Origin: Burkholderiales bacterium
GTDB lineage: Bacteria > Pseudomonadota > Gammaproteobacteria > Burkholderiales > Burkholderiaceae_D
Reading direction: 5' to 3'
Assembly (NCBI GenBank): GCA_003136595.1
Contig: PLEY01000006.1
Location: forward strand, 40,169 to 104,168
DNA: 64,000 bases
Shown: piece by piece, positions 9,698 through 52,876 of the stretch
Layout: the number at the start of each line of letters is the position of its first letter
Numbering within the stretch: position 1 is the stretch's first letter
Made by a program: the position numbers and the translations under genes
Notes under the pieces: model-generated
Seen by the model: the letters and a program-made list of their open reading frames with translations, nothing else
Database searches by the model: none
What the model was told of the DNA's origin: nothing

Positions 9698-9710
9698 GAG
9701 AGTGCCCGAA

Positions 9711-11854: not shown

Positions 11855-12538
11855 CTACGGCGCTGCGAAGCGCAGGCGTTCGTAGGTGTCGAGCACCCGC
11901 GGGACGTAGGCCTGAGTTTCGGCAAAGGGGGGTATTTCGTTATGGTAGCGAATGACTGCGTTGCTGCCCGCGTTGTAGGCGGCTAGTGCGAGCGGCAGGT
12001 TTCCACGGAATTGATCCAGCAGCCGTCTTAAGTGTTGGGTACCGGCGAAGATACTTTCACGCGAGTCAAACGGATTCTTGACACCATAGTTCTGGCTGGT
12101 CTCAGGAGTCAACTGCATCAGACCAAGTGCTCCCTTGGGAGAGACGGCCTGCGGGTTGTAGCCCGACTCGGTGGCCATGACCGCGTAGACGAGCGCAGGC
12201 TCCAGACGTTGGGCTCGCGATGCCTCCTCCACCCAGTGTCGAAGTTCAGAGGAAACCGGCACACGCCGGTGCGCGCCTGCCGTAAGCACTCCGGGCGCTG
12301 TGCCCTCGGATTCATGCAGATCGACAAGCAGCGTGTAGCGGACCGCGGCAGGCGGGTTCTCGGGAACGTTGGTCAGCATGGTCGTGCCCGCGGCATCCGT
12401 ATATCCGAATATGCGCTGTTCACGCTGGGGCGGGGATTCCCGGGCGTACGCGCTCTCCGCCACAATTAATCCCAGCAGGAAGGTCGCGCGGGCTGCTCGC
12501 CGCCACCTCGAGTTCAGCTTTTGGACGGGGGGAAGCAT
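11855..12538 (-). CDS. soluble lytic transglycosylase (SLT domain), exported
   Basis: Catalytic motif ATESGYNPQAVSPKGALGLMQL plus AYNAG. Signal peptide follows the ATG at 12538 (MLPPVQK...LIVAESAYA). Last gene of the export operon. Confidence 0.85.
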   Translation of the reverse strand: MLPPVQKLNSRWRRAARATFLLGLIVAESAYARESPPQREQRIFGYTDAAGTTMLTNVPENPPAAVRYTLLVDLHESEGTAPGVLTAGAHRRVPVSSELRHWVEEASRAQRLEPALVYAVMATESGYNPQAVSPKGALGLMQLTPETSQNYGVKNPFDSRESIFAGTQHLRRLLDQFRGNLPLALAAYNAGSNAVIRYHNEIPPFAETQAYVPRVLDTYERLRFAAP

Positions 12539-12546
12539 GACCCTGA

Positions 12547-13815
12547 TCAGGACGGAGGGGCCGCGACGACACGATAGACGGCGTTTGAGAGCGCGTCGGG
12601 GATGCGCAGATCGCGAACATCGAAGTCGGCAAAGCTCCACGCACCGATGGTTCGAAAGCTGATATGGCTCGCGTCGCTTTCCTGCAAGAGGTAGTTGCCC
12701 GGGGGGAGTTCGCGGGTCTCAATGCTCAACGTGTTGTCCTTTGTCCAGGTTAAGCGCGCACCCGAAAAAGGACGCGCGAGCGGCTCTCCGATGAAGACGC
12801 CCTGGCCGGGCATGGAAACCGACTTCCAGTACGCCTCGATCAATGTCTCGCCACTCAGATAGTGACCCATCACGACCCCTACATCCGGGAATTTGGCGGG
12901 AAAGGAACATGGTTCAACCACCGTGCCATAACTTGCAGTGGCCCCCGCATCGAGCCACGCCAGACTGCTCATCTGTCTGCCCCCCGTCAGGACCCCGCCG
13001 AAAGAGGTCAAGTGATCGGCAATCGCCCCATCTTCGAAGTGAAGCGATGCGAGACCGGGTACCTGGCTTGCTCCAACGAAGTAGAACATCACATCCGAGC
13101 GCCCCTCGAGGGGCTCATTGGCGAGCACGATCGGATAGCTCCTCGCCAGTAGGGCCTGGAGTGACGCGTAGCTCGCAGCGCGGACATTGCGGGCTCTATC
13201 CCCGGTCTGCACCAAATAGGCCGTGCCCCCAGGCCATCGTCCATCGGAGCGGACCCCACGGTCGATCATTGCCCGAACCTGGCTGACGCTGCTGCCGGCC
13301 AACATCATGGTCGGACGCACGTGATAGGTCGCATACGGTGTGGCCGATGCAGTGTTGTAATAGATCGACCTCTTGGTCGGGACGCAACCTGTAGCGCAAT
13401 AGGCCGGGTCGAACCCCAGTGCAAAAGCGCTCGAGATCGACATGCAGCCGACCCGAAATGGATGGGTCCAGGCCAGGGCAAACGCTTGAATCTGAGGTGC
13501 TACCTGCGCCTCCACCTCAGCATGGATCCGTCCAAAGGTGTCGACGTCGAGACTATCGAGCCCGGAAGGAAACGACACGTGCACGACCTGCGATGGAGGC
13601 AGACCGCGCTCTTTGGCATAGTAAGCACCCACCTCAATGCTACTGGCGTCGGCATCATTGACAATCACGGCAAGCTGTTCAGGACCGAGGTGGGACTCGG
13701 GCAGCTCAACTCTCGGGAATGGTCGCGGAGCAGCGTACACGGTGTGGCCGACGAGAAGCAGTACGGCGAGCGCCCACGGACCACGGGCCACGCCGAACCG
13801 CCAGGGGCCCTTCAT
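12547..13815 (-). CDS. exported protein of unknown function (422 aa)
   Basis: Signal peptide MKGPWRFGVARGPWALAVLLLVGHTVYA. ATGA start/stop overlap with the upstream kinase-like gene. No motif I can name with confidence. Confidence 0.7.
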   Translation of the reverse strand: MKGPWRFGVARGPWALAVLLLVGHTVYAAPRPFPRVELPESHLGPEQLAVIVNDADASSIEVGAYYAKERGLPPSQVVHVSFPSGLDSLDVDTFGRIHAEVEAQVAPQIQAFALAWTHPFRVGCMSISSAFALGFDPAYCATGCVPTKRSIYYNTASATPYATYHVRPTMMLAGSSVSQVRAMIDRGVRSDGRWPGGTAYLVQTGDRARNVRAASYASLQALLARSYPIVLANEPLEGRSDVMFYFVGASQVPGLASLHFEDGAIADHLTSFGGVLTGGRQMSSLAWLDAGATASYGTVVEPCSFPAKFPDVGVVMGHYLSGETLIEAYWKSVSMPGQGVFIGEPLARPFSGARLTWTKDNTLSIETRELPPGNYLLQESDASHISFRTIGAWSFADFDVRDLRIPDALSNAVYRVVAAPPS

Positions 13816-14612
13816 TTTGGACCTGGGCGTTTCGCGACCTCGGGTTCGACCCGCGAAACGGCATCTGCGGATTCCGTCGGGTTGGGTTCGCAATACACTG
13901 AGCCGATCAGATTATAGGGTCGCAGGAGGTCCCGGCATTCCTCAAGCTCGGCCCGGCTCGTCAGGTTGCCCTCAGCAACCAGGAGAACACAATCGACCTT
14001 CTCAAACAGACTCAAGCCTTCGGCACTGGTCACAGGCGGGGCATCGAAGATGATGTAGCGTTGAGCATACCGTGACTTCAGCTCGTCGATCAGCAGCGTA
14101 TTCGCGTCGAGCCCAAGCAGTTCCGCTGACTGCGCAACGGCCTTTCCCGCGGGCAGAAGCACGAGATGATCGATCCCTGGGTTGACCACCAACTCGGACA
14201 GCGCAACGCCATCCAGAAGATGGTCGGTCAAGCCCTGTACCGGCCCCAGACCGAACAGTCGGGCGAGTTGAGGGTCTCCCAGATCGGCATCGATGAGAAG
14301 GGCGGTCTTGTCGTACTCGGCGGCGATCGTCAGTGCCAGGTTGATCGACGTGTAGGACTTGCTCGCCGCGCCCACGGGCGCGGTGACGGCGAGGGAGTTC
14401 CAACCCTGAGAACGCATGCGCTGTAGGAGTTGGGCGCGCAGCACCTTGAACGCTTCCGACAACGGTGAGCGCTTGCGGCCCACCACGGCGCGATGGGAGC
14501 GCACATGGCGTGCCGCTTCCGGCATCACCCGGGTCTCGCTATATTCTATCTTCAGCGTATAGCGAGACCCGGCCGCGGGTAGGTTTTCGAGACTCTTGGA
14601 GATATCGTTCAT
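13812..14612 (-). CDS. EpsG/BY-kinase-like P-loop ATPase of the EPS export system
   Basis: 266 aa MinD/ParA-like core. Walker A' (ALLIDADLGD) and Walker B (YIIFDAPPV) are present. The Walker A region reads PVGAASKS, which is atypical. No C-terminal Tyr cluster. Confidence 0.75.
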   Translation of the reverse strand: MNDISKSLENLPAAGSRYTLKIEYSETRVMPEAARHVRSHRAVVGRKRSPLSEAFKVLRAQLLQRMRSQGWNSLAVTAPVGAASKSYTSINLALTIAAEYDKTALLIDADLGDPQLARLFGLGPVQGLTDHLLDGVALSELVVNPGIDHLVLLPAGKAVAQSAELLGLDANTLLIDELKSRYAQRYIIFDAPPVTSAEGLSLFEKVDCVLLVAEGNLTSRAELEECRDLLRPYNLIGSVYCEPNPTESADAVSRVEPEVAKRPGPK

Positions 14613-14630
14613 GAGTGGCCTGATTCTAGG

Positions 14631-16412
14631 TCATGCCAAGAAGCGGCGCTGCAAGGAAAACCAGAGCACATCAAGCGGCATCACGAAAACGTGCAGCAGC
14701 AGCAGTACCACCGCGAGGCAGGCGAGTATTGTGGCCACGACAAGCCACTGTCGCCTGCGCTGCCCGGACGGATTGCGCGGCGCCTTGACCATCGGGATGA
14801 CCGAGAGGACGGGCGCACCCAGGTAGCGGTTGAGGTCGTCGGGGGACTTGATCGTCGAGTCCAAGGACTCGCGCGCCAGGCCAGCGCCCGCGCCGCCTGC
14901 CACGGCAAGGACAAAGCCTGCCAGGATTATCAGGGTTCGATTCGGGCTCGCCGGTCGTTCCGGCACCTGGGGTGGATCGATCAACGTGAAGCGTTCCGCC
15001 TTGCGATCGTGTTCGAGCTGCTCGGCGACTTCAGCCTCCATCTGCTTTTCCTTCAATTCGCGAAAGCGCGCTCTTGAATTCTCCTGATCACGCGACAAGG
15101 TCAGGTATTCTCGCTCCACCTCCGGCATCTGCTCAAGCTTTGCTTCGAGCTCGCGCTGCTTGCGGAGCAACTCCTTCCGTTCGCCCTGCATTGCATTCAT
15201 CTGCGCGTTCGCATCGTCGATCTGGTATCTGAGATTCAGGTAGATCGGATTTTCTGCGCGCACGCGCGTCTCGAGATTTCGTGGGTTGGCTGGCGGAGTG
15301 TTCTCGAGAGCGGCGATTTCACGCTTGATCCGTTGCAAATCAGGATACCCATCGCCGTACTTTTGTTGGGTCTCAACGAGCTGTGCCCTCAACGCTTCAA
15401 GCCGTCGCTGCTGGGCATCGTCCCGCCCGTCGTCGTAGCCTTGCGCCTGCAGCGAGGCAATTTCCCTCTTGAGCCTGCGGATGTCAGGATGATCATCGCT
15501 GTAAGCGCCCGTGATCGCGGCCAGTTCAGCCTTCAAGGACTTCAAGCGATCCTCGGGCTGAAGAACCACCCCTGAACCGGCCTCACCGGGGAGCGCCGAA
15601 TTGGGTGTGGTCAGGGCCAGTTGCGCCTGCGCCGCCGCGCGCCGGTCTGACAGCTGAGTGAGATCGCGCTCGATGCGCTCAAGCTCCTGGGCGTTCCGCT
15701 CGGACATGGACATGTTAAGGTCGCGCAGCTCCGGCAGGCGGCCCGCATTCTTGGCCTTGAAGGCTGCCAGCTGGGCCTCGACCTCGGCGATGTGCTTGGA
15801 AAGACGGGTGCTCTCCTCCTCGAGAAAGTTGGAGGTTTCCGCAGCACGCTGCTGCCTATCCTTCGTATTTTCATTCAGATAGAGAGAGACCAGTTCGTTG
15901 TCGATCTTCTGGGCACTGTCCGGTGAGTTACTGCTATAGGAGATCTTGAATGCGATGGTCGCCTTGACCTGGTTGCCGCTACGATGGTCGATGACATCCG
16001 CGCTGACGGGTTTGAGTTCGATGTCCGATCGCATCCGGTCGAGGACCTCCTCGTTGGTCGCGGTCCGACGCTGGCGCGCGTAGAGACCATATTTGTCGAT
16101 AAGCCCGAGAAGCACCGAGCGGGCCAGCACCTGCTGGCTGATCACCTGAATCCGCTCGTCGGCGAAAGACGTGATGGTGGAGCGGACCAGGTCCTGTGGG
16201 ATCTCCTGCTCCTGAATCAGAATCGTTGCGCTCGACCGATAGACCGGAGGAATGAGGAAAGCAATCGCGATTCCGAGGCTCAAGATGACGAGAAAGGTGA
16301 TGCCGATCGCAAGCCGCCTGCGCTTGGCAACGTCGACGTAGTACGAAAAGGGCTTGCTACGCTCTTCGGTCTGCTCGTCAGGACCGTATTCGTCGAAGCG
16401 ACTAGTGGACAT
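14631..16412 (-). CDS. polysaccharide chain-length determinant (Wzz/GumC/EpsF-type PCP)
   Basis: N-terminal TM followed by PPVYRSSATILI, a long coiled-coil periplasmic region, and a C-terminal TM pair. Start set at the ATG at 16412 (MSTSRFDEY...). Confidence 0.85.
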   Translation of the reverse strand: MSTSRFDEYGPDEQTEERSKPFSYYVDVAKRRRLAIGITFLVILSLGIAIAFLIPPVYRSSATILIQEQEIPQDLVRSTITSFADERIQVISQQVLARSVLLGLIDKYGLYARQRRTATNEEVLDRMRSDIELKPVSADVIDHRSGNQVKATIAFKISYSSNSPDSAQKIDNELVSLYLNENTKDRQQRAAETSNFLEEESTRLSKHIAEVEAQLAAFKAKNAGRLPELRDLNMSMSERNAQELERIERDLTQLSDRRAAAQAQLALTTPNSALPGEAGSGVVLQPEDRLKSLKAELAAITGAYSDDHPDIRRLKREIASLQAQGYDDGRDDAQQRRLEALRAQLVETQQKYGDGYPDLQRIKREIAALENTPPANPRNLETRVRAENPIYLNLRYQIDDANAQMNAMQGERKELLRKQRELEAKLEQMPEVEREYLTLSRDQENSRARFRELKEKQMEAEVAEQLEHDRKAERFTLIDPPQVPERPASPNRTLIILAGFVLAVAGGAGAGLARESLDSTIKSPDDLNRYLGAPVLSVIPMVKAPRNPSGQRRRQWLVVATILACLAVVLLLLHVFVMPLDVLWFSLQRRFLA

Positions 16413-16460
16413 GGCGATGTGCCTCCGAAGCGGTGTGGAGTGGGGCACGGGCGAGCTGGC

Positions 16461-17717
16461 TCATCGCTTGCCCGCCTCGCGGCTCTCGGGCCACGCGTAG
16501 AGATAGTTGGCAAAGATCGAGTCGCCATGAATTCTTGGCGAGCCGGACCGTTCGTGTAGCGTGTTGGTCCGGCCAAGCCCGGCCTGGATGCTGGAAAACT
16601 CATCGATCTTCCACGATAGTGAGGCACTTAAGGACTCGCTCGCTCCCGTGAATCCATCGGCGGGACTCGGCAGGAGGGTGCGTACTTGCGAGTATTTGAG
16701 ACCTCCCGACAGGTTTTCGGCAAGCTGCGAGCTAAGGCCTGCGTCCATCGACTCGGTGACATAGAGACCGCCAAATCCGCTCGGAATCAGCTGTCTGGCC
16801 GCGTGCGCCGAGAGGCCCAGGGTCTCGCTCAAACGGTCGTCAAAACCGACGTTGATCAGGTTGCCGCTACCCGAAGAATTGCGATTGACGTTAATTTCCT
16901 GTAGGGGAACCGCGCCGATATAGCAGTAGAAGATATTGACGGGACAGAAGACGAAAGGCCTTAAGGTCCGCGTGCGATTGTCGAATGCCCCAAGGCTCGC
17001 CGAGAGGGTCGCGGACTCGGAGAGTTGGTGTTGCCAAGTGCCACCAATCTGCTCGGACAGGGTCCGGTCCGCTCCCGAATCGGTGCGGTAGAGGGACGTC
17101 GTCAGAGTCAGACTCAAATTATCGCGTTCTGTCGAAGCGTACTGCAAGCTCGCCGGGAACTGGTAGTACTGATAGTTGGCTGCGCTCGCGCCCGCTCCCG
17201 CAGGACCGGGGTAACGCACGTCCTCCGCCGACAGGCTCGCCGAAACCATGAGCCGCTCGGAAAGTGCCCGACTCCAGGACGGCGCGAACAGGATATCGTC
17301 CCGCTTCTGCTTGGACAGCAGGACCCCTGACGTCAGAAATTCGGATTCGACCGTCAGACTTTTCACATAGCTGAGCGTCGCGCCGACGGTATTTCTCTCA
17401 TCATGGATACTGTACGCAAGGCTCAGATTCAGATCAGTGTGGTTGTCCTCATGCAGCCGCGGCACGTCGAATGCCGTGGCCGAAGCGTCGATCCGCAGGT
17501 TCGACGCTTCGGTGTTCTCTTTCAGAGAAAGGCTTGGGCTCAAGGCAAGGATCAATAGAGGTGAATGGGGCGCAGCACTGAAGAGATAATTGTCACTGTA
17601 CTGGTTCTGAAGCTGGACGCTGCCATCAACTGCGACGTCCGCAGCCTGCGTCGTCGCCTCCATGAAGCCGGTAGCCAGCGCCGCGAACAAGCGCGACGGG
17701 CGGGCTAGGGCACGCAT
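16461..17717 (-). CDS. outer-membrane beta-barrel protein associated with the EPS export locus
   Basis: Signal peptide (ALATGFMEATTQAADVA). Alternating amphipathic strands rich in S/T/L/Y/N throughout. Its position between the Wza-like and PCP genes matches that seen in PEP-CTERM loci. Confidence 0.7.
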   Translation of the reverse strand: MRALARPSRLFAALATGFMEATTQAADVAVDGSVQLQNQYSDNYLFSAAPHSPLLILALSPSLSLKENTEASNLRIDASATAFDVPRLHEDNHTDLNLSLAYSIHDERNTVGATLSYVKSLTVESEFLTSGVLLSKQKRDDILFAPSWSRALSERLMVSASLSAEDVRYPGPAGAGASAANYQYYQFPASLQYASTERDNLSLTLTTSLYRTDSGADRTLSEQIGGTWQHQLSESATLSASLGAFDNRTRTLRPFVFCPVNIFYCYIGAVPLQEINVNRNSSGSGNLINVGFDDRLSETLGLSAHAARQLIPSGFGGLYVTESMDAGLSSQLAENLSGGLKYSQVRTLLPSPADGFTGASESLSASLSWKIDEFSSIQAGLGRTNTLHERSGSPRIHGDSIFANYLYAWPESREAGKR

Positions 17718-17756
17718 CCGGTAGTCTCTTGAAAACCGGAGTCGTATCGACCATGG

Positions 17757-18446
17757 TCAGGGAACGACAACGACGTCGCCGCTCTTCAAGACGATGTTTT
17801 GATCCAGGTCGGTACCCTCACGAATACTCACGTAGTCGAAAGGGATCGAGACCGATTTGCCCTCGATGGTCCGCAGAATGCGTATGTCGTGATCCTGCGC
17901 GAACGGGGTCAGCCCACCGGCCATGCTCAGTGCCTGCAGGACGTCCAGGGGGCGGCCCGAGGTGAGATCGCCGGGTTTGTTGACTCGACCAATCACGTAC
18001 ACCTTGTAGTTAGCGGCCTTCATGACCGAGACCGAGACCGCCGGATCGAGGATGTAGTGCTCAAGCCGTCGCGAGATCTCGGCGCGGATCTGGTCGGGAG
18101 TCATACCGACGACCCGCAGATCGCCAGCCAATGGGAACGAGATGCCCCCGTCCGGCCGCACGAGCACTTCCTTCTTCAGGTTGTCCTCCTTCCAGACCGA
18201 GATTTCCAGCACGTCTTCGGGTCCCACGGTGTAGCTCGACCCGCGGCTCGCCCGACTCTCAGAGATTGCGTCGGTAAGCGCGGGATCGGGCGGGCTCGCG
18301 AGGCCCAGCCGATCTTCAATCGTATTCCCAACGGTATGCAGCGTGCTGCAGGCAGCCAGCACCAGGCATACGCCTGTGCCAAGCATCCGAACGACGCAGT
18401 GCAGCGGATCGCGACGCTTGAGGACAGGGAGCTTCATTCTTGGCAT
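17757..18446 (-). CDS. polysaccharide export lipoprotein (Wza/EpsE-like, Poly_export plus SLBB)
   Basis: Lipobox LVLAAC. Motifs YTVGPEDVLEISVW, DGGISFPLAGDLRVVGMT and VYVIGRVNKPG. Confidence 0.88.
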   Translation of the reverse strand: MPRMKLPVLKRRDPLHCVVRMLGTGVCLVLAACSTLHTVGNTIEDRLGLASPPDPALTDAISESRASRGSSYTVGPEDVLEISVWKEDNLKKEVLVRPDGGISFPLAGDLRVVGMTPDQIRAEISRRLEHYILDPAVSVSVMKAANYKVYVIGRVNKPGDLTSGRPLDVLQALSMAGGLTPFAQDHDIRILRTIEGKSVSIPFDYVSIREGTDLDQNIVLKSGDVVVVP

Positions 18447-18458
18447 GTGGATTCCCGA

Positions 18459-19145
18459 CTATTTCGCGTTGGCGTCCGGTAGGGCGCGCTGGGCATCGAT
18501 GCTTCCCCGATACTCCTGGACCAGATTGAACATCTGCGTATCCCCGAAACCCAGGAAAGGCTCCTCCTGTTTGAGGATCTCTTCGAAGCCCTTGTCGCGG
18601 TAGCGCTGGAGCAAGTCGTGACCTAACGCGAGGAGGCGCTCGTTTTGATTCAGGCACGTGGCCAGCTCCTGCTTTTCCGAAGCCAGATGCGCGTTGAGTG
18701 TCGTACGTTCCATAAGCCGGGCTTTATTGAACGCCTCAATCTCAGCGCCTTTGGCCGCGAGCGCAGCCGCGCTCGTGCGCTGTTGCTCTTCGATCCGCCT
18801 GTTCAGATCGGATATCGTCTTTTGCAAGCCGCTGCGGGCCTTGGTCGACTGCTCGAGATCCTGACTGGTTTTATCGGCAGCGGCTTTCTCTGCGGCAAGC
18901 GCCTGGTCGTTTGCGGCGATTTTTTTCTGTAGCTCGGAACGCTCAGCCTGCCATTGGGTCCGCTCCTGCTCGTAGCGTTGCAACAGGGCCTCGTAGCGCC
19001 GCGCTGCGTTCTGTTCCTTCTTGTCGTCTGCCGCAAACAGTGTCGCACTTTGAAGGGTCATCAAAATCATCACGGCGGTCAATCCCGAAGTCCGCAGTGC
19101 TCGACGGCGGCCGGATTCCAGGCAAAGTGGTGGAAGGCCGTACAT
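18459..19145 (-). CDS. exported coiled-coil protein (unknown function, TtpB/DUF3450-like in architecture only)
   Basis: Signal peptide, then about 150 aa of heptad-like sequence rich in E/Q/A/K/L, then a short globular C-terminus. 7 nt from the porin gene and 12 nt from the wza-like gene. Confidence 0.65.
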   Translation of the reverse strand: MYGLPPLCLESGRRRALRTSGLTAVMILMTLQSATLFAADDKKEQNAARRYEALLQRYEQERTQWQAERSELQKKIAANDQALAAEKAAADKTSQDLEQSTKARSGLQKTISDLNRRIEEQQRTSAAALAAKGAEIEAFNKARLMERTTLNAHLASEKQELATCLNQNERLLALGHDLLQRYRDKGFEEILKQEEPFLGFGDTQMFNLVQEYRGSIDAQRALPDANAK

Positions 19146-19152
19146 GATCGCC

Positions 19153-20709
19153 TCAGAACCTGGTGTTCAGGTCGAATTGGATCTGATCGATGGACAACGG
19201 CGGCCCGTTGATCGAATCCGTGCTGAAATAGCGCAAAGTGGCCCAGGTGTTCTTCGCCAGTCCATAGCTGGCGCCGAACACATAACCCTTGGCGTCGGTT
19301 CCGCCGAGGTGGAAGTCCGGATCCGTAAATGCGTCCAGGACCGCGTCCCGCTCGACATGTTTGTAGGTCAGGGAAAGCTGCCAGTCGTTGCGGGCCTTCA
19401 GTTCAGGGTCACCAAATACGCCCCGTACAAGGTACCCGACGGTCTTGGGTTGCACGTTCTGGCCGACCCGCGCGGAGACCGCAGCTTCGTCGAACCCCAG
19501 GTTCTTGACGTAATCGGCGGTCAGGATCGCATGGTACGGGCCGTTAACGACCGTATCGAGAGTCGCAGTGAGATCAGCAAGGCGATAGGCCGAAGCCAGA
19601 CCGAGGAGCGGTCGGGTTGGATCGCTGCTGATGTTGTAGTAGGTATTGCCCTTTTGCGTAAAGGCCGGCGCCGTGTATTCGTAGAGCGACGTGCCAAGGG
19701 GGCTGACCACGCCTTCGATCCCGGTATAGCGATAGTAGCCGAGCGCGATTGTTGCGTTCGTGTCTTGCCCCCAGTTTTGCTGAATCCCGCCTTGGGTCGA
19801 GAAGAGGTACTTGTTGGCCGAGCCCAGGTCGATCTCCTGGACGGGCGAGGCCATCATCAGAATGAAGGGTCGTGTGCCCTGCCCGAGATCGCGCGAGTAC
19901 TTGAGCGCGATGCCATCAAAGCTCAAATCCGGTGCCCAAACGAGGTCGGTGGCCACTAGCGGATTCGCGAAGCGGCCGAAGGTCGCCGAGAAGCCCGGAT
20001 ACGGACGGAATTGCAGATAAGCCCGGTCCACAGCAACGGTATAGCGCGTTTCGTAGTTGCCCAGTGTCTGATTCTCCGACAACGGGTCGGTCGCACTTCC
20101 GGTAGCGAGCCGAAAGCCGGCGCTCGTCTCGTCGTCGATATCAGCCGTAAAGCCGGCACGGGCCCGGACGCGTTCCCGGTCTGTCGTCTCGGTGGTGTTC
20201 AAAAGCGTCAGGGCGCGGTTGTTGTTGGTTGCCAAAGGGTTTACGGCCGGGGCATTCCCGCTGGCAAATGCGTCGTTCTCGAAGCGAATTCGAAGATCAC
20301 CCTCCCATTTCAGAGTACGGACCCAGTCGGGAACGCTTCCCGGGGGAGCCCAGCCATCCTGCTTTGCCTGCGCGAGCAGGTCCTGGCGGATCTCCTCCTT
20401 TAACTGGTCACGAACGAACTGGGGCACATAAGGCACGCGGACCTCTCCGGGACTTGCGGTGCCATTCGCCGTCGCAGCATTGGCAGGTGCGGGTGTTGCA
20501 GCCACTGGCGCGGGACTGGGTTGGCTTGCCTCCTTGATCAATGCATCAGCCTTCTCGCGTGTCAGGATGCCCTGCTCGACGAGCGCCTCGATGAGCTTGA
20601 GCGTCGCCGCGCGCAGGGGATCGATTGGCGACGGATCGGCGCTCCAGCTCGCGCCGCTGGCGGTAGCCAGGATGAGTCCGACAACGAGCGGTAATATTCT
20701 AGTTTTCAT
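19153..20709 (-). CDS. porin-like outer-membrane barrel with an N-terminal helical extension
   Basis: Signal peptide MKTRILPLVVGLILATASGASWS. Helical N-terminal segment (LKLIEALVEQGILTREKADALIKEA) followed by an Ala/Pro linker. Long beta-strand region ending in the aromatic terminus ...DLNTRF. Confidence 0.7.
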   Translation of the reverse strand: MKTRILPLVVGLILATASGASWSADPSPIDPLRAATLKLIEALVEQGILTREKADALIKEASQPSPAPVAATPAPANAATANGTASPGEVRVPYVPQFVRDQLKEEIRQDLLAQAKQDGWAPPGSVPDWVRTLKWEGDLRIRFENDAFASGNAPAVNPLATNNNRALTLLNTTETTDRERVRARAGFTADIDDETSAGFRLATGSATDPLSENQTLGNYETRYTVAVDRAYLQFRPYPGFSATFGRFANPLVATDLVWAPDLSFDGIALKYSRDLGQGTRPFILMMASPVQEIDLGSANKYLFSTQGGIQQNWGQDTNATIALGYYRYTGIEGVVSPLGTSLYEYTAPAFTQKGNTYYNISSDPTRPLLGLASAYRLADLTATLDTVVNGPYHAILTADYVKNLGFDEAAVSARVGQNVQPKTVGYLVRGVFGDPELKARNDWQLSLTYKHVERDAVLDAFTDPDFHLGGTDAKGYVFGASYGLAKNTWATLRYFSTDSINGPPLSIDQIQFDLNTRF

Positions 20710-20749
20710 GGGCTAGTTCAGCGAGATTGGGGCATTGGCGCGAGGCGTT

Positions 20750-21424
20750 CTAGGTCCGATTACTAAGGCGTACCTCGATGTCATGTCGCAGATAGTTCGG
20801 CGGCACTTCTTTGAGGGGGGGCGCATCGGCAAGCGCGGTCTGGATCTGTTGGTCGAGGTCGCGATTTCCCGAATCGGTCACGAAGGTGGCATGGAGAACG
20901 CGACCATCGGGTCCAATTTCTATCCTGACGACAACCCGGAAGGACTGACGCTGGATCTTCTTGTCCTTCATCAGTGCTTCATAAAACTGGCGCTGGATGA
21001 GGCCGGTATAGTAGGCGCCTCCACCTCCGGTCGCCGTGAGATCCGTACCCCCGATACGCGAGCCGAGCCCGAAATTATCCGAGCCGGCGCTACCCTGGGC
21101 GTCGAGCGCCAGCGGCTTGTCCGATGGCGGTTTCGCATCTGCAGGCTTGTCCGGCTTGGCTTCATCCGGCTGCTTGACCTGCACCTCCTCTTTCACCTTC
21201 GGCGGCTCGGGAGGCTTTTCGGGGGGCTTCGGTGGCGGAGGAGGCGGTTGCTTGATCAGGGAGATGTTGTGCACGACCTGCTTCGGACCCTCTTGCTTGC
21301 CAAGAAAGTCCTTGAAAAAGTAGACGGCTCCCACAACCGAACCAAGAACCAAAATAATGGCGAAGAGCCAAATCGCCCAGGCTCTTGGCTCGCGATCGAC
21401 TTGCGATTCAATTTTCGGGCCCAC
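20750..21424 (-). CDS. tonB: TonB-family energy transducer
   Basis: N-terminal TM anchor, Pro/Lys/Glu-rich spacer (QPPPPPPKPPEKPPEPPKVKEE...), and a C-terminal TonB_C-like domain. Confidence 0.8.
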   Translation of the reverse strand: MGPKIESQVDREPRAWAIWLFAIILVLGSVVGAVYFFKDFLGKQEGPKQVVHNISLIKQPPPPPPKPPEKPPEPPKVKEEVQVKQPDEAKPDKPADAKPPSDKPLALDAQGSAGSDNFGLGSRIGGTDLTATGGGGAYYTGLIQRQFYEALMKDKKIQRQSFRVVVRIEIGPDGRVLHATFVTDSGNRDLDQQIQTALADAPPLKEVPPNYLRHDIEVRLSNRT

Positions 21425-21426
21425 GG

Positions 21427-21831
21427 CTATTTCACCAAGCGCTGTGTGACCAGGCCGAGTTGGGTGATGTCCAGGCGCCCCAAGAGATCAAGGACATCCA
21501 CCACCTTCTCGTATTGCACCTTCGAGTCGCCCTTGATGACGACGGGAAAGTTGGGATTGACCGCCTTTTGTTGGCGCAGTCGTTCTTCCAATTCCTGCAT
21601 CGTGACAGGATAGGTATCCAGGAACACCTGCCCATCCTCGCGGATCGTGATCGCCTTGGTCTGGGGTTTGGCCAGGCTCGGGGCGGCGCTCGCCTTGGGC
21701 AGGTTGACCTTGATGCCCTGGACCGAAGCGGTCGTCATGATGATAAAGATGACGAGCAGGACATAGGCAAGGTCAAGCATGGGCGTGACATTGATATCGT
21801 CATAGGGCTTCTGCTCGGACTGAACCTGCAT
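21427..21831 (-). CDS. exbD: ExbD/TolR-family biopolymer transport protein
   Basis: 134 aa. The segment INVTPMLDLAYVLLVIFIIM includes a TM helix with the conserved Asp, followed by a periplasmic domain. Confidence 0.88.
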   Translation of the reverse strand: MQVQSEQKPYDDINVTPMLDLAYVLLVIFIIMTTASVQGIKVNLPKASAAPSLAKPQTKAITIREDGQVFLDTYPVTMQELEERLRQQKAVNPNFPVVIKGDSKVQYEKVVDVLDLLGRLDITQLGLVTQRLVK

Positions 21832-21852
21832 GATCTATTTCCTGGCGCCCGA

Positions 21853-23586
21853 TTACTCGGAATAGTTTTCCGCGAGGCGGGTCACGAATTCGTCGACAAA
21901 GACCTGCATATCCGTGGTCAGTTCCTTGATTTTGCTGGCGAGATAGTTGTAGCCAAACAGCGATGGGATCGCAACGCCCAGTCCGGCAACGGTTGCCACA
22001 AGTGCGGCGGCAATCCCCGGGGCGATCGCGTTCACGTTGACATCACCGGCTGCCGCGATCGCCGCGAAGGTGATCATGACACCGACCACAGTTCCCAGAA
22101 GTCCAAGGAATGGCCCCCCTGCGATGGCGATCGTCAGAAGCACCATCTGGGCGTTCAACTTCTGCAGTTCCCGCATCAGGCTCGCATCGAGGGACGCTCG
22201 AATGGCGCTGATCGACTGGGGAGTCAGGGTCAGGGCGCGGCCCTTTTCCCGATAGACCGCGAAGCGCTTTTTCAATTCGACCGTCCCGACCGAATAGATC
22301 CGGAACATCGAGGAAACATCACGGACCTTCTTGTGTTTTGCAGCCCTTGCCTCATACAGCTTCGTCAGATCGACTCCCATCTCGTCAAATTCTTCCTTGA
22401 ACGAGGCGTTGGCGCGCGCTGTCTTCGTCACGAAGATCGCTTTCGTCACCATGACGAAGAGGCTGATGATCATCATGACCATCAGAATGCCGATCACGAC
22501 CCAGCCGTCCAGAGTGACTGAACCCAGCAGAATCTTGAAGTAGGACGTTCCGCCGCTCTCATCACCGCCTTCTGCCTGCCCGTAGGTCGTCAGCTTCTGA
22601 TCGACTCCCTGACCCAGCGCGGCAATCCGAATCCAGTCGGGACTCCGTTCTGAATCCGCGAGCTCAAATTCGTCGAGGTCGCCCTTGAATCCCTGGCCGA
22701 CCGTCACCGTGCCGGACATGGCGGGCGCCGCTGCGGTGACGCGCCCAACTTCCTGTCCGTCGACATAGGCGATGGCATTGTCCTTGACAACCAGCGCCAC
22801 GTGGTGCCATGCCCCGGCCGTGACGGCGCCACCGGCCGCCGTCACGCTGCCATTGACTTGGGCGACGATCTTGTCGCCCTGCAAGAGCAGACTGATCGAA
22901 TTGGCGCCGTCTAGCTGTTTGAAGAGAACGGCGTTCTGGCCGGCACCATCGGGCTTAATCCACATGGATGCCGTAAGGCCATTCGCTGCGACCTTGATTG
23001 ACGCGGACGCCGGGATGGAAAGGGTGTCGTTGCCACTCAATGTCAGGCCAGTATCGATCAGGCTGCTCGGATTGGAAGTGCCCGCGCTGGCGGATGCGTT
23101 GTTCCCGTAGGCCGTCGAGTCCTTCGGCGGGCCGCTCGACTCGTCAAAGTGATAGACCACTGCCTGGGCACTGTCATAGCTGGTCTTGGAATCTCCTGCG
23201 GCAGCCGCCTTGGGATTGTTGTAATACAGCCAGAAGTAGCCGTTCTTGTTGCCCGGCGCGATCTTCGGCACCGTCACCCACACGAACGCGAGCTCAGTGA
23301 CACTGTCGTAATGCTCGATATGGAATTTGAGGGGCGTCTTGTCGTCGTCGGCAATGAAGCGGATATCCGAGCCGTCTGGTTTTGCATCACCAAAGGCGAA
23401 GTTACCGGTATGCAGCCTCACCAAGACCTGCGCGCCCTCGACCGGTGCCGCGGTCGAGACGCCATCGGCCGAGGTATTGAGGGTGACCTTGATCCGGCTC
23501 GCCCAATCGGAGTTCCAGTTTGCTTGCGAGGAGCCAAACAGCAGGAGCCCGCATAGAAATAGAACGATCCGGAGGTTTTTGTTCAT
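21853..23586 (-). CDS. MotA/TolQ/ExbB proton-channel protein fused to N-terminal periplasmic DUF2341 and LamG (concanavalin-like) domains
   Basis: 577 aa with a signal peptide. DUF2341-like block (WASRIKVTLN...DGSDIRFIADDDKTPLKFHIEHYD...AFVWVTVPKI...LYYNN). LamG-like block (LTLSGNDTLSIP...LTASMWIKP...WHHVALVV...AYVDG...GDLDEFELADSERSPDWI). C-terminal MotA_ExbB helices (LGLLGTVVGVMITFAAI...PGIAAALVATVAGL). Confidence 0.85.
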   Translation of the reverse strand: MNKNLRIVLFLCGLLLFGSSQANWNSDWASRIKVTLNTSADGVSTAAPVEGAQVLVRLHTGNFAFGDAKPDGSDIRFIADDDKTPLKFHIEHYDSVTELAFVWVTVPKIAPGNKNGYFWLYYNNPKAAAAGDSKTSYDSAQAVVYHFDESSGPPKDSTAYGNNASASAGTSNPSSLIDTGLTLSGNDTLSIPASASIKVAANGLTASMWIKPDGAGQNAVLFKQLDGANSISLLLQGDKIVAQVNGSVTAAGGAVTAGAWHHVALVVKDNAIAYVDGQEVGRVTAAAPAMSGTVTVGQGFKGDLDEFELADSERSPDWIRIAALGQGVDQKLTTYGQAEGGDESGGTSYFKILLGSVTLDGWVVIGILMVMMIISLFVMVTKAIFVTKTARANASFKEEFDEMGVDLTKLYEARAAKHKKVRDVSSMFRIYSVGTVELKKRFAVYREKGRALTLTPQSISAIRASLDASLMRELQKLNAQMVLLTIAIAGGPFLGLLGTVVGVMITFAAIAAAGDVNVNAIAPGIAAALVATVAGLGVAIPSLFGYNYLASKIKELTTDMQVFVDEFVTRLAENYSE

Positions 23587-23634
23587 AGGGGAATGGATGG
23601 GCCGCCGCGGGCGCGCAGGGAATTACCGCAGAGC

Positions 23635-23650
23635 AGCAATGATGAGTCCG
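23635..23650 (-). promoter_or_regulatory. weak sigma-54 (-24/-12)-like element upstream of the exbB-led operon
   Basis: Minus strand reads cGGactcatcaTTGCt, so the GG-N10-GC spacing is correct and the -12 TTGC is perfect. The -24 half is poor. About 50 nt upstream of the ATG at 23586. Confidence 0.3.
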
Positions 23651-23909
23651 GTTTGTTTCAGGATCGTGTAACCCCGTCTACATCAGAGAATTCCTCGGGT
23701 CTTATCGGTGCCTTCCCTGGTCGGATAGCCGCGCCGGAGCGATCGAGAGTGCTCCCAGGTCGCTCAGTTGGGATTTGTGGCGAGGACAGTGGCCTTCAGG
23801 GCGACGATTTCCGAAAACCGGGACCGCACAGCCACGCGAGCCCGGCTTCGCCGGGGAGGGGTAAAGCCGCGCCCGGGAGACGCCTCCGGCAGTCAGCCGG
23901 GCGCTCAGA

Positions 23910-47605: not shown

Positions 47606-47621
47606 CGCCCCGTATGTGCCG
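47606..47621 (-). promoter_or_regulatory. candidate sigma-54 promoter for prsT
   Basis: Minus strand reads cGGCACatacgggGCg. The -24 half is a GGCAC match, the GG-N10-GC spacing is exact, and the -12 half is weaker (GGGC vs TTGC). About 45 nt upstream of the prsT ATG. Confidence 0.4.
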
Positions 47622-48146
47622 GTGAGATCGACACATGACAAGTGCGCCATCGCCCTGCTGGACCGATTGGGCGCCGCGGACACCGTGCCCTGGATGCTGC
47701 GGCAAGGGACGTGGGGCTCAAGCGGTGGGAAGTACTCGAAAATCCGCTCATGCGATCGCGGAACACCAAGAGAGTCCCGATGCAGACGACAGACTTTCGC
47801 CAATGTGGAGATCAGTCCCACTGAACGACCTGAAATTAGTGCAGCTTCGCAGGGCAACGGTAGGTTAATGGGTCAAGATGACAGCCTTGTGGCATCGCTG
47901 CGCACGGCGTCGCCACCGGGAAACCCGGCTCCACGGCTCGCACCGGTTCTGAGCCCGGCGGCGCAAGCGGGCCGCGCGGGACGCGACCCTTTGCTGCTCT
48001 CCCCGCCGGCTAAGCCCACCGCCGAGCGTTGCGGCCGAGTGTTACATGCGTGTCATATGTCGAAAGTACATTCGAGGGTTTCTGTCTCATTACAGTCCCA
48101 GATTTCCGCGCACGGCAGTAGTTCTCCTCCTCAGTCAGACCTCAAA

Positions 48147-52704: not shown

Positions 52705-52876
52705 AGACTGAGCGCAGGCGCACGTCCCGCGTGGGGCCCATGCCGCACCTCCATGGACCGGTATCGATCTGCCGACTCTCATGACCTGAAATATCTGGAT
52801 TTTCAGGCGATGACGCCGTCCGGACCGCGCCGTCTAGGGGTTTTCTTCGCCCCGCGTCCTGGTTGGGAGCGGTCGA

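What the first reader, a model, noticed from the sequence alone, without database searches (positions are those of the whole stretch)
11855..23586. A TonB-ExbD-ExbB motor, a porin-like barrel and a coiled-coil protein sit in the same predicted operon as the Wza/Wzc-type EPS exporter
Eleven minus-strand genes run from 23586 to 11855 with gaps of at most 48 nt, including one ATGA start/stop overlap at 13812-13815. The sequence therefore predicts a single transcript. The order is (DUF2341-LamG)ExbB, ExbD, TonB, porin-like barrel (ends ...NTRF), exported coiled-coil protein, Wza-like lipoprotein, beta-barrel, Wzz/GumC PCP, kinase-like ATPase, secreted 422-aa protein, SLT transglycosylase. TonB systems are known for energising import through plug-containing TonB-dependent receptors. 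No such receptor is encoded here, and the motor heads an export operon instead. The accessory set (coiled-coil protein plus an ExbB with a large periplasmic domain) loosely recalls the Vibrio TonB2 Ttp proteins, but linkage to a polysaccharide exporter inside an exosortase locus is not something I know to be characterised. My inference is a proton-motive-force-coupled step in matrix polysaccharide or PEP-CTERM protein export or assembly, or gating of the porin-like barrel.
Basis: partly seen in the sequence, partly recalled or inferred. Interest (0 to 1): 0.8.

Follow-up and report, generated by a model that had tools for sequence, protein, structure and literature searches.

The report
TonB4-type motor cassette fused to EPS exporter
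The operon is real, but its TonB-like motor, porin and coiled-coil genes belong to a widespread, still-uncharacterised cassette (Pseudomonas aeruginosa exbB2-exbD2-tonB4-PA0696-PA0697) whose usual neighbour is a giant secreted filament protein, and only one bacterial lineage has joined it to a polysaccharide exporter.

Summary
Eleven intact minus-strand genes run from 23586 to 11855, with gaps of -4 to 48 nt, and every domain call holds.

The first five genes are a member of the P. aeruginosa PA0693-PA0697 cassette. They encode DUF2341-LamG-ExbB, ExbD, TonB, Porin_5 and a coiled-coil protein. ExbB is 40% identical to its P. aeruginosa counterpart over its full length, ExbD 60% and the porin 35%. 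[quoted passage not shown]

Across 160 loci, the cassette's conserved partner is a giant TPS+DUF3739 exoprotein of the PdtA type:
- 61 of 74 cassettes have the giant gene nearby.
- 36 of 51 giant genes are followed by the cassette.
- Wza lies within 10 kb of only 12 of 55 cassettes.

The window encodes such a giant (55796 to beyond 64000) and its TpsB (47616-49781).

Wza, the barrel, the PCP and the kinase form a self-contained Class-3 OPX translocon. The fusion to wza is nevertheless conserved in one clade (16 of 17 assessable loci), and seven scattered loci also have Wza close by.

The exosortase is XrtD, not XrtA. No Ttp/DUF3450 similarity was found.

Verdict: a new operon variant of a known but functionally unsolved module. 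Interest is moderate.

The parts
21853..23586 (-). ExbB2-type stator subunit. It has a signal peptide, a periplasmic DUF2341 + LamG (lectin-fold) domain and a TolQ-like 3-TM channel domain.
   Evidence: Pfam. 40% identical over its full length to the P. aeruginosa DUF2341 protein P0285, which is PA0693 by gene order. AF2 pLDDT is 76. The C-terminal half superposes on TolQ (TMt about 0.8) and the N-terminal half on jelly-roll lectin folds.
21427..21831 (-). ExbD/TolR-type stator subunit.
   Evidence: PF02472, E 1.4e-29. 60% identical to the P. aeruginosa neighbour, which is PA0694 by gene order.
20750..21424 (-). TonB-family protein (TonB4-like). It has an N-terminal TM anchor, a Pro-rich spacer, a Gly-rich stretch and a TonB_2 C-terminal domain.
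   Evidence: TonB_2, E 4.5e-9. Alignment A6 shows no conserved His in the TM segment. The profile's best PDB hits are HasB (E 0.002) and TonB.
19153..20709 (-). Porin_5 outer-membrane barrel (PA0696 family). Its periplasmic N-terminal extension has two helices, an A/P-rich linker, the conserved VRVPYVPQ motif and a further helix.
   Evidence: PF16930, E 9e-155. 35% identical to the P. aeruginosa Porin_5 gene (E 8e-90). AF2 pLDDT is 76. The best PDB match is the stalked porin OmpM1, followed by AlgE, OmpF and OprP. The motif is conserved in A3 and in PA0696.
18459..19145 (-). Exported coiled-coil protein (PA0697 family) with a conserved C-terminal C..KN..LY...EPFTGL..V motif.
   Evidence: No Pfam family and no DUF3450 hit, even at E<=5. 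It aligns with the 220-aa P. aeruginosa and Klebsiella neighbours. It is present after Porin_5 in 37 of 55 loci.
17757..18446 (-). Short (Class-3-like) OPX lipoprotein. It has Poly_export + SLBB and no C-terminal membrane helix.
   Evidence: Pfam and TIGR03027-like matches. It is 229 aa long and ends with the SLBB domain. It has a lipobox, LVLAAC. Class definition: PMC12819527.
16461..17717 (-). Putative Wzp-type beta-barrel partner of the OPX protein.
   Evidence: Only a weak TIGR03016 match (E 1e-4). It lies directly after the OPX gene in all fused loci. This is the arrangement described for wzaB-wzpB (PMC12819527).
14631..16412 (-). Polysaccharide co-polymerase (the XrtA-system chain-length determinant family).
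   Evidence: TIGR03007, 306.6 bits against a cut-off of 278.85. The start at 16412 follows the gene calls.
13812..14612 (-). Separate BY-kinase-like P-loop ATPase.
   Evidence: TIGR03018-like, 160.6 bits, below the cut-off of 230.65. Also matches AAA_31.
12547..13815 (-). Exported TIGR03790-family protein of unknown function. Its start overlaps the kinase stop (ATGA).
   Evidence: TIGR03790, 211 bits. No PDB relative by sequence. It follows the kinase in L009 and follows the coiled-coil gene directly in L058.
11855..12538 (-). SLT-type lytic transglycosylase, the last gene of the operon.
   Evidence: An SLT homologue lies within 10 kb in 11 of 55 loci. It follows the coiled-coil gene directly in the Gallionellaceae-type loci L024, L026, L028, L037 and L042. 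A terminator-like hairpin lies at 11844-11832.
23587..23909 (-). 323-nt upstream intergenic region, the likely promoter region of the operon.
   Evidence: It is the only long gap in the run. The scan found no sigma-70 consensus there.
55796..64000 (+). Giant PdtA-type two-partner-secretion exoprotein. 2734 aa are visible and the ORF runs off the end of the window.
   Evidence: TPS domain, E 3e-22. It clusters with the giant ORFs (c1) next to the cassette in 58 loci. Those ORFs end in DUF3739.
47616..49781 (+). TpsB transporter (POTRA_2 + ShlB).
   Evidence: Pfam. 38% identical to P. aeruginosa PdtB and 37% to the Klebsiella TpsB.
49802..52108 (+). TPR + GT41 glycosyltransferase in the TPS locus.
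   Evidence: Pfam. It recurs next to the cassette or the giant gene in other loci.
52753..53925 (+). 390-aa protein with a VPLPA-CTERM-like tail, a candidate XrtD substrate.
   Evidence: C-terminal VPIPAAVWLMGSGLVGLLGVGRRRRAA. No family.
54011..55567 (+). 518-aa protein of unknown family (cluster c64) just upstream of the giant gene.
   Evidence: Homologues lie next to exbB in L058 and L103. No family.
40504..42087 (+). Exosortase XrtD with a fused EpsI domain. It lies in the EPS gene cluster that separates the cassette from the TPS locus.
   Evidence: TIGR04152, 562.8 bits against a cut-off of 400.

Best explanation
The operon is a lineage-specific fusion of two modules.

Module A (23586-18459) is a member of the widespread cassette known from P. 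aeruginosa as exbB2-exbD2-tonB4-PA0696-PA0697. It encodes a TolQ-like/ExbD proton-driven stator whose A subunit carries a periplasmic lectin-fold domain. It also encodes a proline-rich TonB-family transducer, a Porin_5 barrel with a long periplasmic N-terminal extension, and an exported coiled-coil protein.

Module B (18446-13812, probably with the TIGR03790 and SLT genes down to 11855) is a self-contained Class-3 OPX / beta-barrel / PCP / kinase polysaccharide translocon.

Shown here:
- the identity of both modules;
- that module A's conserved genomic partner across phyla is a giant TPS+DUF3739 (PdtA-type) exoprotein with its TpsB, both also present in this window;
- that the fusion to wza is confined mainly to one clade.

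Inferred:
- The stator uses the proton gradient to drive the TonB-like protein.
- That protein engages the periplasmic extension of the Porin_5 barrel. The conserved VRVPY(V/I)P strand motif is the candidate docking site.
- The cassette serves the giant filament protein, in its handling, anchoring or release, or in passage of something through the porin. It does not power Wza.
- Placing it in front of wza co-expresses three matrix components: the giant filament, the EPS and the XrtD-sorted proteins.
For: Identity with the P. aeruginosa cassette:
- Window ExbB against P. aeruginosa P0285: 40% identity over the full length, E 1e-125.
- ExbD is 60% identical, Porin_5 35% (E 8e-90) and TpsB 38%.
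- The P. aeruginosa contig has the order TPS+DUF3739 (4180 aa) / DUF772 / TpsB / DUF2341-ExbB / ExbD / TonB_2 / Porin_5 / 220 aa / YbjN / rotamase / LysR. This matches PA0690-PA0701 as listed in PMC2729926 and PMC7035377.
- A Klebsiella plasmid shows the same order, preceded by a short STN-type receptor, an ECF sigma factor and a FecR-type gene.

Cassette conservation: Porin_5 follows ExbB/ExbD in 62 of 63 loci that have at least 4 kb downstream.

Partner: a DUF3739 giant is present in 61 of 74 loci. It usually ends 80-350 nt before exbB. In the reciprocal scan, which started from DUF3739 C-termini, 36 of 51 loci have the cassette downstream and only 6 of 51 have Wza.

Window: a giant TPS protein and TpsB lie at 47616 to beyond 64000. 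L168 is an intermediate, with EPS genes inserted between the giant gene and exbB.

Module B is complete without module A. It has an OPX protein, its own barrel, a PCP and a kinase. The solved and biochemically mapped Class-3 OPX/Wzp/PCP complex involves no TonB system. The terms TonB, ExbB and 'proton motive' do not occur in PMC12819527.

Structure: the stator half superposes on TolQ, and the porin resembles the stalked porin OmpM1.
Against: - The function of PA0693-PA0697 is unknown (PMC7035377). PA0695 and PA0696 transposon mutants showed no change in the one phenotype tested (PMC2729926). The mechanism is therefore pure inference.
- In this window the giant gene is 32 kb away on the other strand, while wza is 12 nt away.
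- In the window's clade the fusion is retained in 16 of 17 assessable loci, and in L167 the coiled-coil gene and wza overlap by 4 nt. Seven loci in other parts of the tree also have Wza within 10 kb. This hints at more than co-expression.
- The TonB and coiled-coil proteins are too divergent for tblastn to link them to the P. aeruginosa ones. For these two, family membership rests on position, architecture and alignments A6 and A7.
- No interaction was modelled.
Confidence: 0.55

Rival explanations
1. The TonB-type motor supplies proton-motive energy to a step of polysaccharide export or matrix assembly. It might act on the OPX/barrel/PCP translocon, or it might gate Porin_5 as a second polymer exit.
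For: - The cassette and exporter share an operon, with a 12-nt gap here and a 4-nt overlap in L167.
- The fusion is kept in 16 of 17 assessable loci of the clade, and 7 scattered loci have Wza within 10 kb.
- The ExbB periplasmic domain has a lectin/LamG fold.
- The Porin_5 model also matches the alginate exporter AlgE, E 3e-11.
Against: - 43 of 55 cassettes have no Wza within 10 kb.
- The P. aeruginosa and Klebsiella cassettes have no exporter beside them.
- The exporter has its own barrel.
- Class-3 OPX systems are described as complete without a TonB system (PMC12819527).
- The AlgE match is no better than the matches to general porins.
Confidence: 0.15
2. A nutrient-import system of the HxuABC type. 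The giant TpsA captures or liberates a substrate at the cell surface. The TonB-like protein then opens the Porin_5 channel so that the substrate can be taken up. The link to EPS genes is incidental.
For: - Import is the canonical direction of TonB systems.
- HxuA/HxuB/HxuC combines a TpsA, a TpsB and a TonB-dependent receptor (PMC4873976, PMC5422565).
- The P. aeruginosa cassette is induced by phosphate starvation through PhoB and sigma-VreI (PMC7035377, PMC4971064).
- Some Porin_5 homologues also match the phosphate-porin family PF07396, and OprP and OprO are among the fold matches.
Against: - Porin_5 has no plug domain and no recognisable TonB box of the DTxxVxA type.
- No uptake genes for the periplasm or inner membrane recur beside the cassette.
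- Here, and in the window's clade, the cassette is embedded in matrix-biosynthesis genes rather than nutrient-acquisition genes. No ECF sigma factor or FecR gene is present in the window.
Confidence: 0.2
3. A Tol-Pal-like envelope tether. The TolQ/TolR/TolA-like proteins and the stalked porin hold the outer membrane to the inner membrane or the cell wall at sites where very large polymers leave the cell. They transport nothing themselves.
For: - The best NCBIfam matches are TolQ, TolR and TolA rather than ExbB, ExbD and TonB.
- The stator half superposes on TolQ structures.
- The best structural match of the porin is the outer-membrane attachment porin OmpM1.
- A lytic transglycosylase recurs beside the cassette.
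Against: - All Tol scores are far below the family cut-offs.
- There is no TolB, Pal or CpoB.
- The Porin_5 extension has no SLH or other known wall-binding domain.
- The TonB-like protein has a proline-rich spacer, typical of TonB, not the long helix of TolA.
Confidence: 0.08

Closest known systems
P. aeruginosa exbB2-exbD2-tonB4-PA0696-PA0697 (PA0693-PA0697), downstream of pdtA/pdtB in the sigma-VreI (PUMA3)/PhoB regulon
   Same: The five genes, their order and their architectures are the same: DUF2341-LamG-ExbB, ExbD, TonB_2, Porin_5 and a coiled-coil protein of about 220 aa. Identities are 35-60% for three of them. A giant TPS+DUF3739 exoprotein and a TpsB lie in the same region.
   Different: - Here the cassette is not next to the giant gene, which lies 32 kb away on the opposite strand.
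- It is followed directly by an OPX/barrel/PCP/kinase exporter instead of the YbjN and PpiC genes.
- No VreA/VreI/VreR-type genes are in the window.
- The function of the P. aeruginosa system is itself unknown (PMC7035377).
Class-3 OPX / Wzp beta-barrel / PCP trans-envelope polysaccharide translocon (M. xanthus WzaB-WzpB-WzcB; PEP-CTERM-type EPS loci)
   Same: A short lipoprotein OPX with Poly_export + SLBB and no membrane helix. A barrel gene lies directly downstream, followed by a PCP and a kinase (PMC12819527, PMC9601211).
   Different: No TonB-type cassette is described with those systems. The barrel here matches its family only weakly.
Haemophilus influenzae HxuA-HxuB-HxuC
   Same: A two-partner-secretion exoprotein is genetically coupled to a TonB-energised outer-membrane protein (PMC4873976).
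   Different: HxuC is a plug-containing TonB-dependent receptor, and the TonB system is encoded elsewhere. Here the outer-membrane protein is a plug-less Porin_5, the motor is dedicated, and the TpsA is several times larger.
Tol-Pal system (TolQ-TolR-TolA)
   Same: The closest sequence and fold relatives of the stator. The C-terminal domain of the third protein belongs to the shared TonB/TolA fold family.
   Different: Scores are far below the equivalog cut-offs. There is no TolB, Pal or CpoB. The A subunit carries an extra periplasmic lectin-fold domain of about 330 aa. The spacer is proline-rich.
Vibrio TonB2 system with TtpB/TtpC/TtpD
   Same: A TonB system with extra accessory proteins, including a stator-like protein with a large extra domain (own knowledge; PMC12505986 lists DUF3450 and DUF2341 side by side as uncharacterised appendages).
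   Different: The coiled-coil protein gives no DUF3450 match. There is no TPR TtpD equivalent. The cassette has one DUF2341-ExbB rather than a TtpC plus an ExbB.
Veillonella parvula OmpM1 (outer-membrane attachment porin)
   Same: The best structural match of the Porin_5 model (E 8e-17, TMt 0.78). Both are porin barrels preceded by a periplasmic helical extension.
   Different: Only 15-16% identity. Porin_5 has no SLH domain. Its extension is interrupted by a disordered A/P-rich linker.

Membership tests
PdtA-associated TonB4 cassette (P. aeruginosa PA0693-PA0697) | ExbB with an N-terminal DUF2341 + LamG periplasmic domain | tested here: met
   Pfam. The same architecture is seen in P. aeruginosa P0285. 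40% identity over the full length.
PdtA-associated TonB4 cassette (P. aeruginosa PA0693-PA0697) | Gene order ExbB-ExbD-TonB-Porin_5-coiled-coil protein, co-directional | tested here: met
   The same order is seen in 62 of 63 loci for Porin_5.
PdtA-associated TonB4 cassette (P. aeruginosa PA0693-PA0697) | Sequence homology of all five proteins to the P. aeruginosa ones | tested here: inconclusive
   ExbB, ExbD and Porin_5 are clearly homologous. TonB is not detected by tblastn against P. aeruginosa, and is 29% identical to the Klebsiella protein. The coiled-coil protein aligns with a shared C-terminal motif, at 19-20% identity.
PdtA-associated TonB4 cassette (P. aeruginosa PA0693-PA0697) | Giant TPS+DUF3739 exoprotein and TpsB adjacent | tested here: inconclusive
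   Both are present in the window but 24-32 kb away on the other strand. The C-terminus of the giant protein, where DUF3739 would lie, is outside the window.
PdtA-associated TonB4 cassette (P. aeruginosa PA0693-PA0697) | YbjN and PpiC-type isomerase genes downstream; VreA/VreI/VreR-type regulators nearby | tested here: not met
   None was found in the window. These genes are also absent from many other loci, so they are accessory rather than defining.
Canonical TonB-ExbB-ExbD import system | A plug-containing TonB-dependent receptor as client | tested here: not met
   No ORF scanned in the window matched a TonB-dependent receptor family.
Canonical TonB-ExbB-ExbD import system | Scores above the ExbB/ExbD/TonB equivalog cut-offs; conserved His in the TonB membrane anchor | tested here: not met
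   ExbB scores 67 bits against a cut-off of 206, and ExbD 69 against 123-216. TonB_Cterm scores 25.3 against 27.1. No conserved His is seen in the anchor, although that region aligns poorly.
Tol-Pal system | TolQ/TolR/TolA above cut-off, with TolB, Pal and CpoB | tested here: not met
   TolQ scores 136 bits against 221, TolR 99 against 127 and TolA 37 against 59. There are no TolB, Pal or CpoB genes in the operon.
Vibrio TonB2/Ttp system | TtpB (DUF3450) coiled-coil protein | tested here: not met
   No DUF3450 match at E<=5. HMMER's filters may hide very weak matches.
Class-3 OPX composite translocon | Short lipidated OPX (Poly_export + SLBB) without a membrane-spanning C-terminal helix | tested here: met
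   The protein is 229 aa. The domains span residues 69-141 and 148-228, to the last residue. A lipobox is present.
Class-3 OPX composite translocon | Dedicated beta-barrel porin gene next to the OPX gene | tested here: inconclusive
   The 418-aa ORF lies directly downstream and is conserved in all fused loci. Its only family match is weak, TIGR03016 at E 1e-4. No structure was predicted.
Class-3 OPX composite translocon | PCP and BY-kinase partners | tested here: met
   The PCP matches TIGR03007 above the cut-off. The kinase is TIGR03018-like, below the cut-off, but with a P-loop AAA_31 match.
   XrtA scores 194.6 bits, below its cut-off of 208. XrtD scores 562.8, above its cut-off of 400. A VPLPA-CTERM-like tail is found at 52753-53925.

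The most novel reading that the evidence does not exclude
The TonB4-type cassette is a proton-driven outer-envelope machine that works outward, not inward. Through its TonB-like arm, stalked porin and lectin-bearing stator, it would secrete, anchor, tension or release the giant two-partner-secretion filament. In the window's clade it would also be mechanically coupled to the polysaccharide translocon. A TonB-family motor would then take part in building the extracellular matrix.
Probability: 0.22. Interest if true: 0.85.

Novelty: new variant of a known kind. Interest (0 to 1): 0.5.

Why it matters
TonB systems are understood almost entirely as import motors for plug-containing receptors. This cassette has no such receptor. 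It has its own porin and a stator with a lectin-fold domain, and it is found from Pseudomonas to Verrucomicrobiota and Myxococcota (by record title).

This survey shows that its neighbourhood is dominated by giant two-partner-secretion proteins. In one lineage it has been welded to a polysaccharide exporter.

That gives the unsolved P. aeruginosa tonB4 question two concrete, testable clients: the giant PdtA-type filament and, in some bacteria, EPS. It also identifies candidate docking motifs on the porin and on the giant protein. If the motor proves to act in export or matrix assembly, it would widen what TonB-family systems are known to do. If not, the finding is a co-expression arrangement of matrix genes.

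Tried and rejected
- Ttp/DUF3450 similarity of the coiled-coil protein: no Pfam hit, even at E<=5. A PDB profile search returned only generic coiled coils.
- TonB-dependent receptor in the window: none (all family scans).
- Internal terminators or promoters: the scan gave no site in any intergenic gap, and the counts were near the shuffle expectation.
- Literature on DUF2341, DUF3739 and PF16930: no functional study. DUF2341 is only listed as an uncharacterised appendage.
- A shared 'LGFGD' between the window's coiled-coil protein and the C-terminal motif of the giant proteins: rejected as coincidence, because the coiled-coil family consensus is EPFTGL(K/R)RV.
- The TIGR03790 protein has no PDB relative by sequence.
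- The AlgE resemblance of Porin_5 is not treated as evidence for polymer export, because general porins score equally well.
- The window's own species was not among the 80 genome loci returned. The best was 58% identical. The closest relatives therefore came from metagenome contigs.

Full report
**1. Observation**

The eleven minus-strand ORFs between 23586 and 11855 are all intact. The junctions are 21, 2, 40, 7, 12, 39, 48, 18, -4 (ATGA at 13812-13815) and 8 nt. Gene calls made independently on the public metagenome contigs that carry the same sequence give the same eleven genes.

Domain assignments hold:

| Gene | Assignment |
|---|---|
| ExbB | DUF2341 + Laminin_G_3 + MotA_ExbB |
| ExbD | PF02472 |
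| TonB | TonB_2 |
| Porin | Porin_5, E 9e-155 |
| Coiled-coil protein | 228 aa, no family |
| Wza | 229 aa, Poly_export + SLBB lipoprotein |
| Barrel | 418 aa, only a weak TIGR03016 match |
| PCP | TIGR03007, above cut-off |
| Kinase | TIGR03018-like ATPase |
| 422-aa protein | TIGR03790 family |
| SLT | lytic transglycosylase |

A consensus scan found no promoter or terminator in any intergenic gap. The only long gap is the 323 nt upstream of exbB. No TonB-dependent receptor was found among the ORFs scanned.

The exosortase is XrtD (562.8 bits), not XrtA. The PrsT-like TPR protein scores below its cut-off.

**2. What the first five genes are**

An ExbB search returned thousands of proteins with the same DUF2341-LamG-MotA_ExbB architecture. 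I fetched 80 genome loci around such genes and mapped the window's proteins onto them.

ExbB-ExbD-TonB-Porin_5-coiled-coil is a fixed cassette. Porin_5 follows in 62 of 63 loci with enough downstream sequence. By record title, the loci come from Burkholderiales, Gallionellaceae, Thiobacillus, Rhodocyclaceae, Bradyrhizobium, Methylocella, Steroidobacteraceae, Verrucomicrobiota and Myxococcota.

A giant ORF, more than 3000 aa and cut by the 10-kb flank, lies co-directional with exbB. It usually ends 80-350 nt before exbB. Its C-terminus is Pfam DUF3739, 'filamentous haemagglutinin family outer membrane protein'. It ends in a conserved motif, P(S/T)(F/I)(L/I)(T/S)VEV(L/I)G(F/Y)G.

Counts:
- 61 of 74 loci with upstream sequence contain the giant gene.
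- Only 12 of 55 contain a Wza homologue within 10 kb.

The reciprocal test started from DUF3739 C-termini in metagenomes. Of 51 loci with at least 6 kb downstream, 36 have the cassette downstream and 6 have Wza.

The window has its own copy of this giant gene. It is on the plus strand, from 55796 to beyond the window end, and has an N-terminal TPS secretion domain. Its neighbours are:
- a TpsB at 47616-49781;
- a TPR-GT41 glycosyltransferase at 49802-52108;
- an unknown 518-aa protein (54011-55567) that also recurs beside exbB elsewhere.

**3. Link to a known system**

A literature search led to the P. aeruginosa PUMA3/sigma-VreI locus. Llamas et al. 2009 (PMC2729926) list:
- PA0690 tpsA, PA0692 tpsB;
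- PA0693 exbB2, PA0694 exbD2, a tonB homologue PA0695;
- PA0696-PA0698, of unknown function;
- PA0699, a PpiC isomerase.

They also noted that TPS, ExbBD and PA0696 homologues travel together in several genera. Otero-Asman et al. [quoted passage not shown]

I verified the homology directly.
- A P. aeruginosa DUF2341 protein (P0285, a cluster of 904 sequences) lies on a contig with exactly that gene order and the expected Pfam domains. These include a 4180-aa TPS+DUF3739 protein and a Porin_5 gene.
- The window's ExbB is 40% identical to it over the full length (E 1e-125).
- ExbD is 60% identical, Porin_5 35% (E 8e-90) and TpsB 38%.
- The coiled-coil protein aligns with the 220-aa PA0697-position protein through a shared C-terminal motif.
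- A Klebsiella plasmid shows the same locus, preceded by a short STN-type receptor, an ECF sigma factor and a FecR-type gene.

So the motor, porin and coiled-coil genes are a member of a known but functionally unsolved cassette.

**4. What the other genes are**

The gene set is a short OPX without a membrane helix, a barrel gene directly after it, a PCP and a separate kinase. This is the composition of the Class-3 OPX / Wzp / PCP translocon described for Myxococcus and proposed to be widespread (PMC9601211, PMC12819527). That complex has its own outer-membrane pore. The Nat Commun 2026 paper does not mention TonB, ExbB or proton-motive force. The exporter therefore does not obviously need Porin_5 or a motor.

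**5. How conserved is the fusion**

A neighbour-joining tree of 125 ExbB sequences places the window in one clade. Its other members are its closest metagenomic relatives (L167, L168) and Burkholderiales loci (L001-L016, L087-L090).

Within that clade, 16 of 17 assessable loci have Wza/PCP after the cassette. The gaps are usually compatible with one transcript, and in L167 the coiled-coil gene and wza overlap by 4 nt.

Most Burkholderiales members still have the giant gene directly upstream, with a GT4 gene between it and exbB. In L168, EPS biosynthesis genes have been inserted between the giant gene and exbB. In L167 and in the window, the giant gene is no longer within 10 kb.

Seven other loci, scattered over the tree, have a Wza homologue within 10 kb at variable distance. 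The linkage is real in this lineage, but it is not a property of the cassette family.

**6. Structure and motifs**

The AF2 model of ExbB (pLDDT 76) has two parts. The C-terminal half superposes on TolQ (TMt about 0.8, 26-27% identity). The N-terminal periplasmic domain, about 330 aa, has a jelly-roll lectin-type fold. NCBIfam also ranks TolQ, TolR and TolA above ExbB, ExbD and TonB, all far below cut-off.

The TonB-like protein has a membrane anchor without a conserved His, a proline-rich spacer and a TonB_2 domain. The nearest solved relatives of that domain are HasB and TonB.

The Porin_5 model (pLDDT 76) is a barrel preceded by a periplasmic extension of about 120 residues. The extension has two helices, a disordered A/P-rich linker and then a helix. 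Just before that helix lies the motif VRVPY(V/I)P, which is conserved from the window to PA0696. The best PDB match is the stalked attachment porin OmpM1. AlgE, OmpF and OprP follow at similar scores.

**7. Mechanism**

Shown:
- the identity of the two modules;
- the partner statistics;
- the clade-specific fusion.

Inferred:
- The stator converts proton flow into movement of the TonB-like protein.
- That protein docks on the periplasmic extension of Porin_5. The conserved strand-like motif is the obvious candidate for the beta-strand addition by which TonB and TolA domains bind partners (established knowledge).
- The cassette's client is the giant filament protein, or something passing through the porin in connection with it.
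- Co-transcription with the exporter would coordinate the matrix components.

I put 0.55 on this package. The identity part alone deserves about 0.9. Which client the motor serves, and in which direction, is open.

The rivals are set out separately:
- PMF-coupled EPS export, 0.15;
- HxuABC-like import, 0.2;
- a Tol-like tether, 0.08.

**8. Novelty and score**

The cassette and its association with TPS genes have been in the literature since 2009, so the motor itself is not new. I found the following described nowhere:
- the breadth and reciprocity of the giant-protein linkage;
- the clade in which the cassette heads a Class-3 OPX exporter operon inside an XrtD locus;
- the conserved motifs on the porin and on the giant protein.

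I rate it a new variant of a known kind, with interest 0.5. The most novel reading not excluded is a TonB-family motor acting in export or matrix assembly. I give that a probability of 0.22; it would deserve an interest of 0.85 if true.

Noticed in passing
window 55796-64000 (+), with 47616-49781, 49802-52108 and 54011-55567: A two-partner-secretion locus. It holds a giant TPS-domain exoprotein that runs off the window end, a TpsB, a TPR-GT41 glycosyltransferase and an unknown 518-aa protein. The ORF lister did not report the giant ORF because it runs off the end.
   Followed up: yes
window 52753-53925 (+): A 390-aa protein without family, inside the TPS locus. It ends in VPIPAAVWLMGSGLVGLLGVGRRRRAA, a VPLPA-CTERM-like sorting tail that fits the XrtD exosortase at 40504-42087.
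   Followed up: partly
window 23910-25538 (-): A 542-aa protein with no Pfam or NCBIfam match and no homologue in the 80 genome loci. Its N-terminus (RRGALARLGALGVLAGTSSLISAC) looks like a twin-arginine signal with a lipobox. It is co-directional with exbB and lies 323 nt upstream of it.
   Followed up: no
L003, L019, L075, L166 and about 55 other loci: C-termini of the giant ORFs: The giant TPS/DUF3739 proteins end in a conserved P(S/T)(F/I)(L/I)(T/S)VEV(L/I)G(F/Y)G motif, followed by a charged, often Cys-containing tail. The motif is conserved from Pseudomonas to Verrucomicrobiota and Myxococcota. It is a possible periplasmic docking element.
   Followed up: partly
window 20350-20640 (-), Porin_5 residues about 25-120; L166 13101-13600: The Porin_5 N-terminal extension carries two conserved elements: LIxxLVxQGVLTxExAxAL and (E/D)VRVPY(V/I)P(E/Q)xV(K/R). 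Both are shared with P. aeruginosa PA0696.
   Followed up: partly
L018, L020, L024, L028, L042 (about 15-21 kb): In Gallionellaceae-type loci the cassette is followed by SLT and then by GspF-, GspE- and PilM/N/O-like genes. This echoes the Hxc type II secretion genes beside pdtA in P. aeruginosa.
   Followed up: no
L019, L022, L025, L031, L032, L074, L078 (between Porin_5 and the coiled-coil gene): A periplasmic ankyrin-repeat protein of about 250 aa is inserted into the cassette in Thiobacillus/Sulfuricella-type loci.
   Followed up: no
L052, L057, L072, L075, L080 and L165 (upstream of exbB): FecR/DUF4880 genes lie upstream of the cassette in Bradyrhizobium-type loci, in most of them together with STN-like receptor-fragment and extra TonB genes. 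On the Klebsiella plasmid, a short receptor, an ECF sigma factor and a DUF4880 gene do the same. This matches the VreA/VreI/VreR (PUMA3) arrangement.
   Followed up: partly
window 8579-9742, 7594-8586, 6110-7552 and 39136-40110: Two GDP-mannose 4,6-dehydratase paralogues, a GDP-fucose synthase and ManC. They suggest that the polysaccharide made by this locus contains fucose or another 6-deoxyhexose.
   Followed up: no
window 28413-30932 (-), 36288-37844 (+), 27140-28444 (+): Several large ORFs inside the EPS cluster have no Pfam or NCBIfam match.
   Followed up: no
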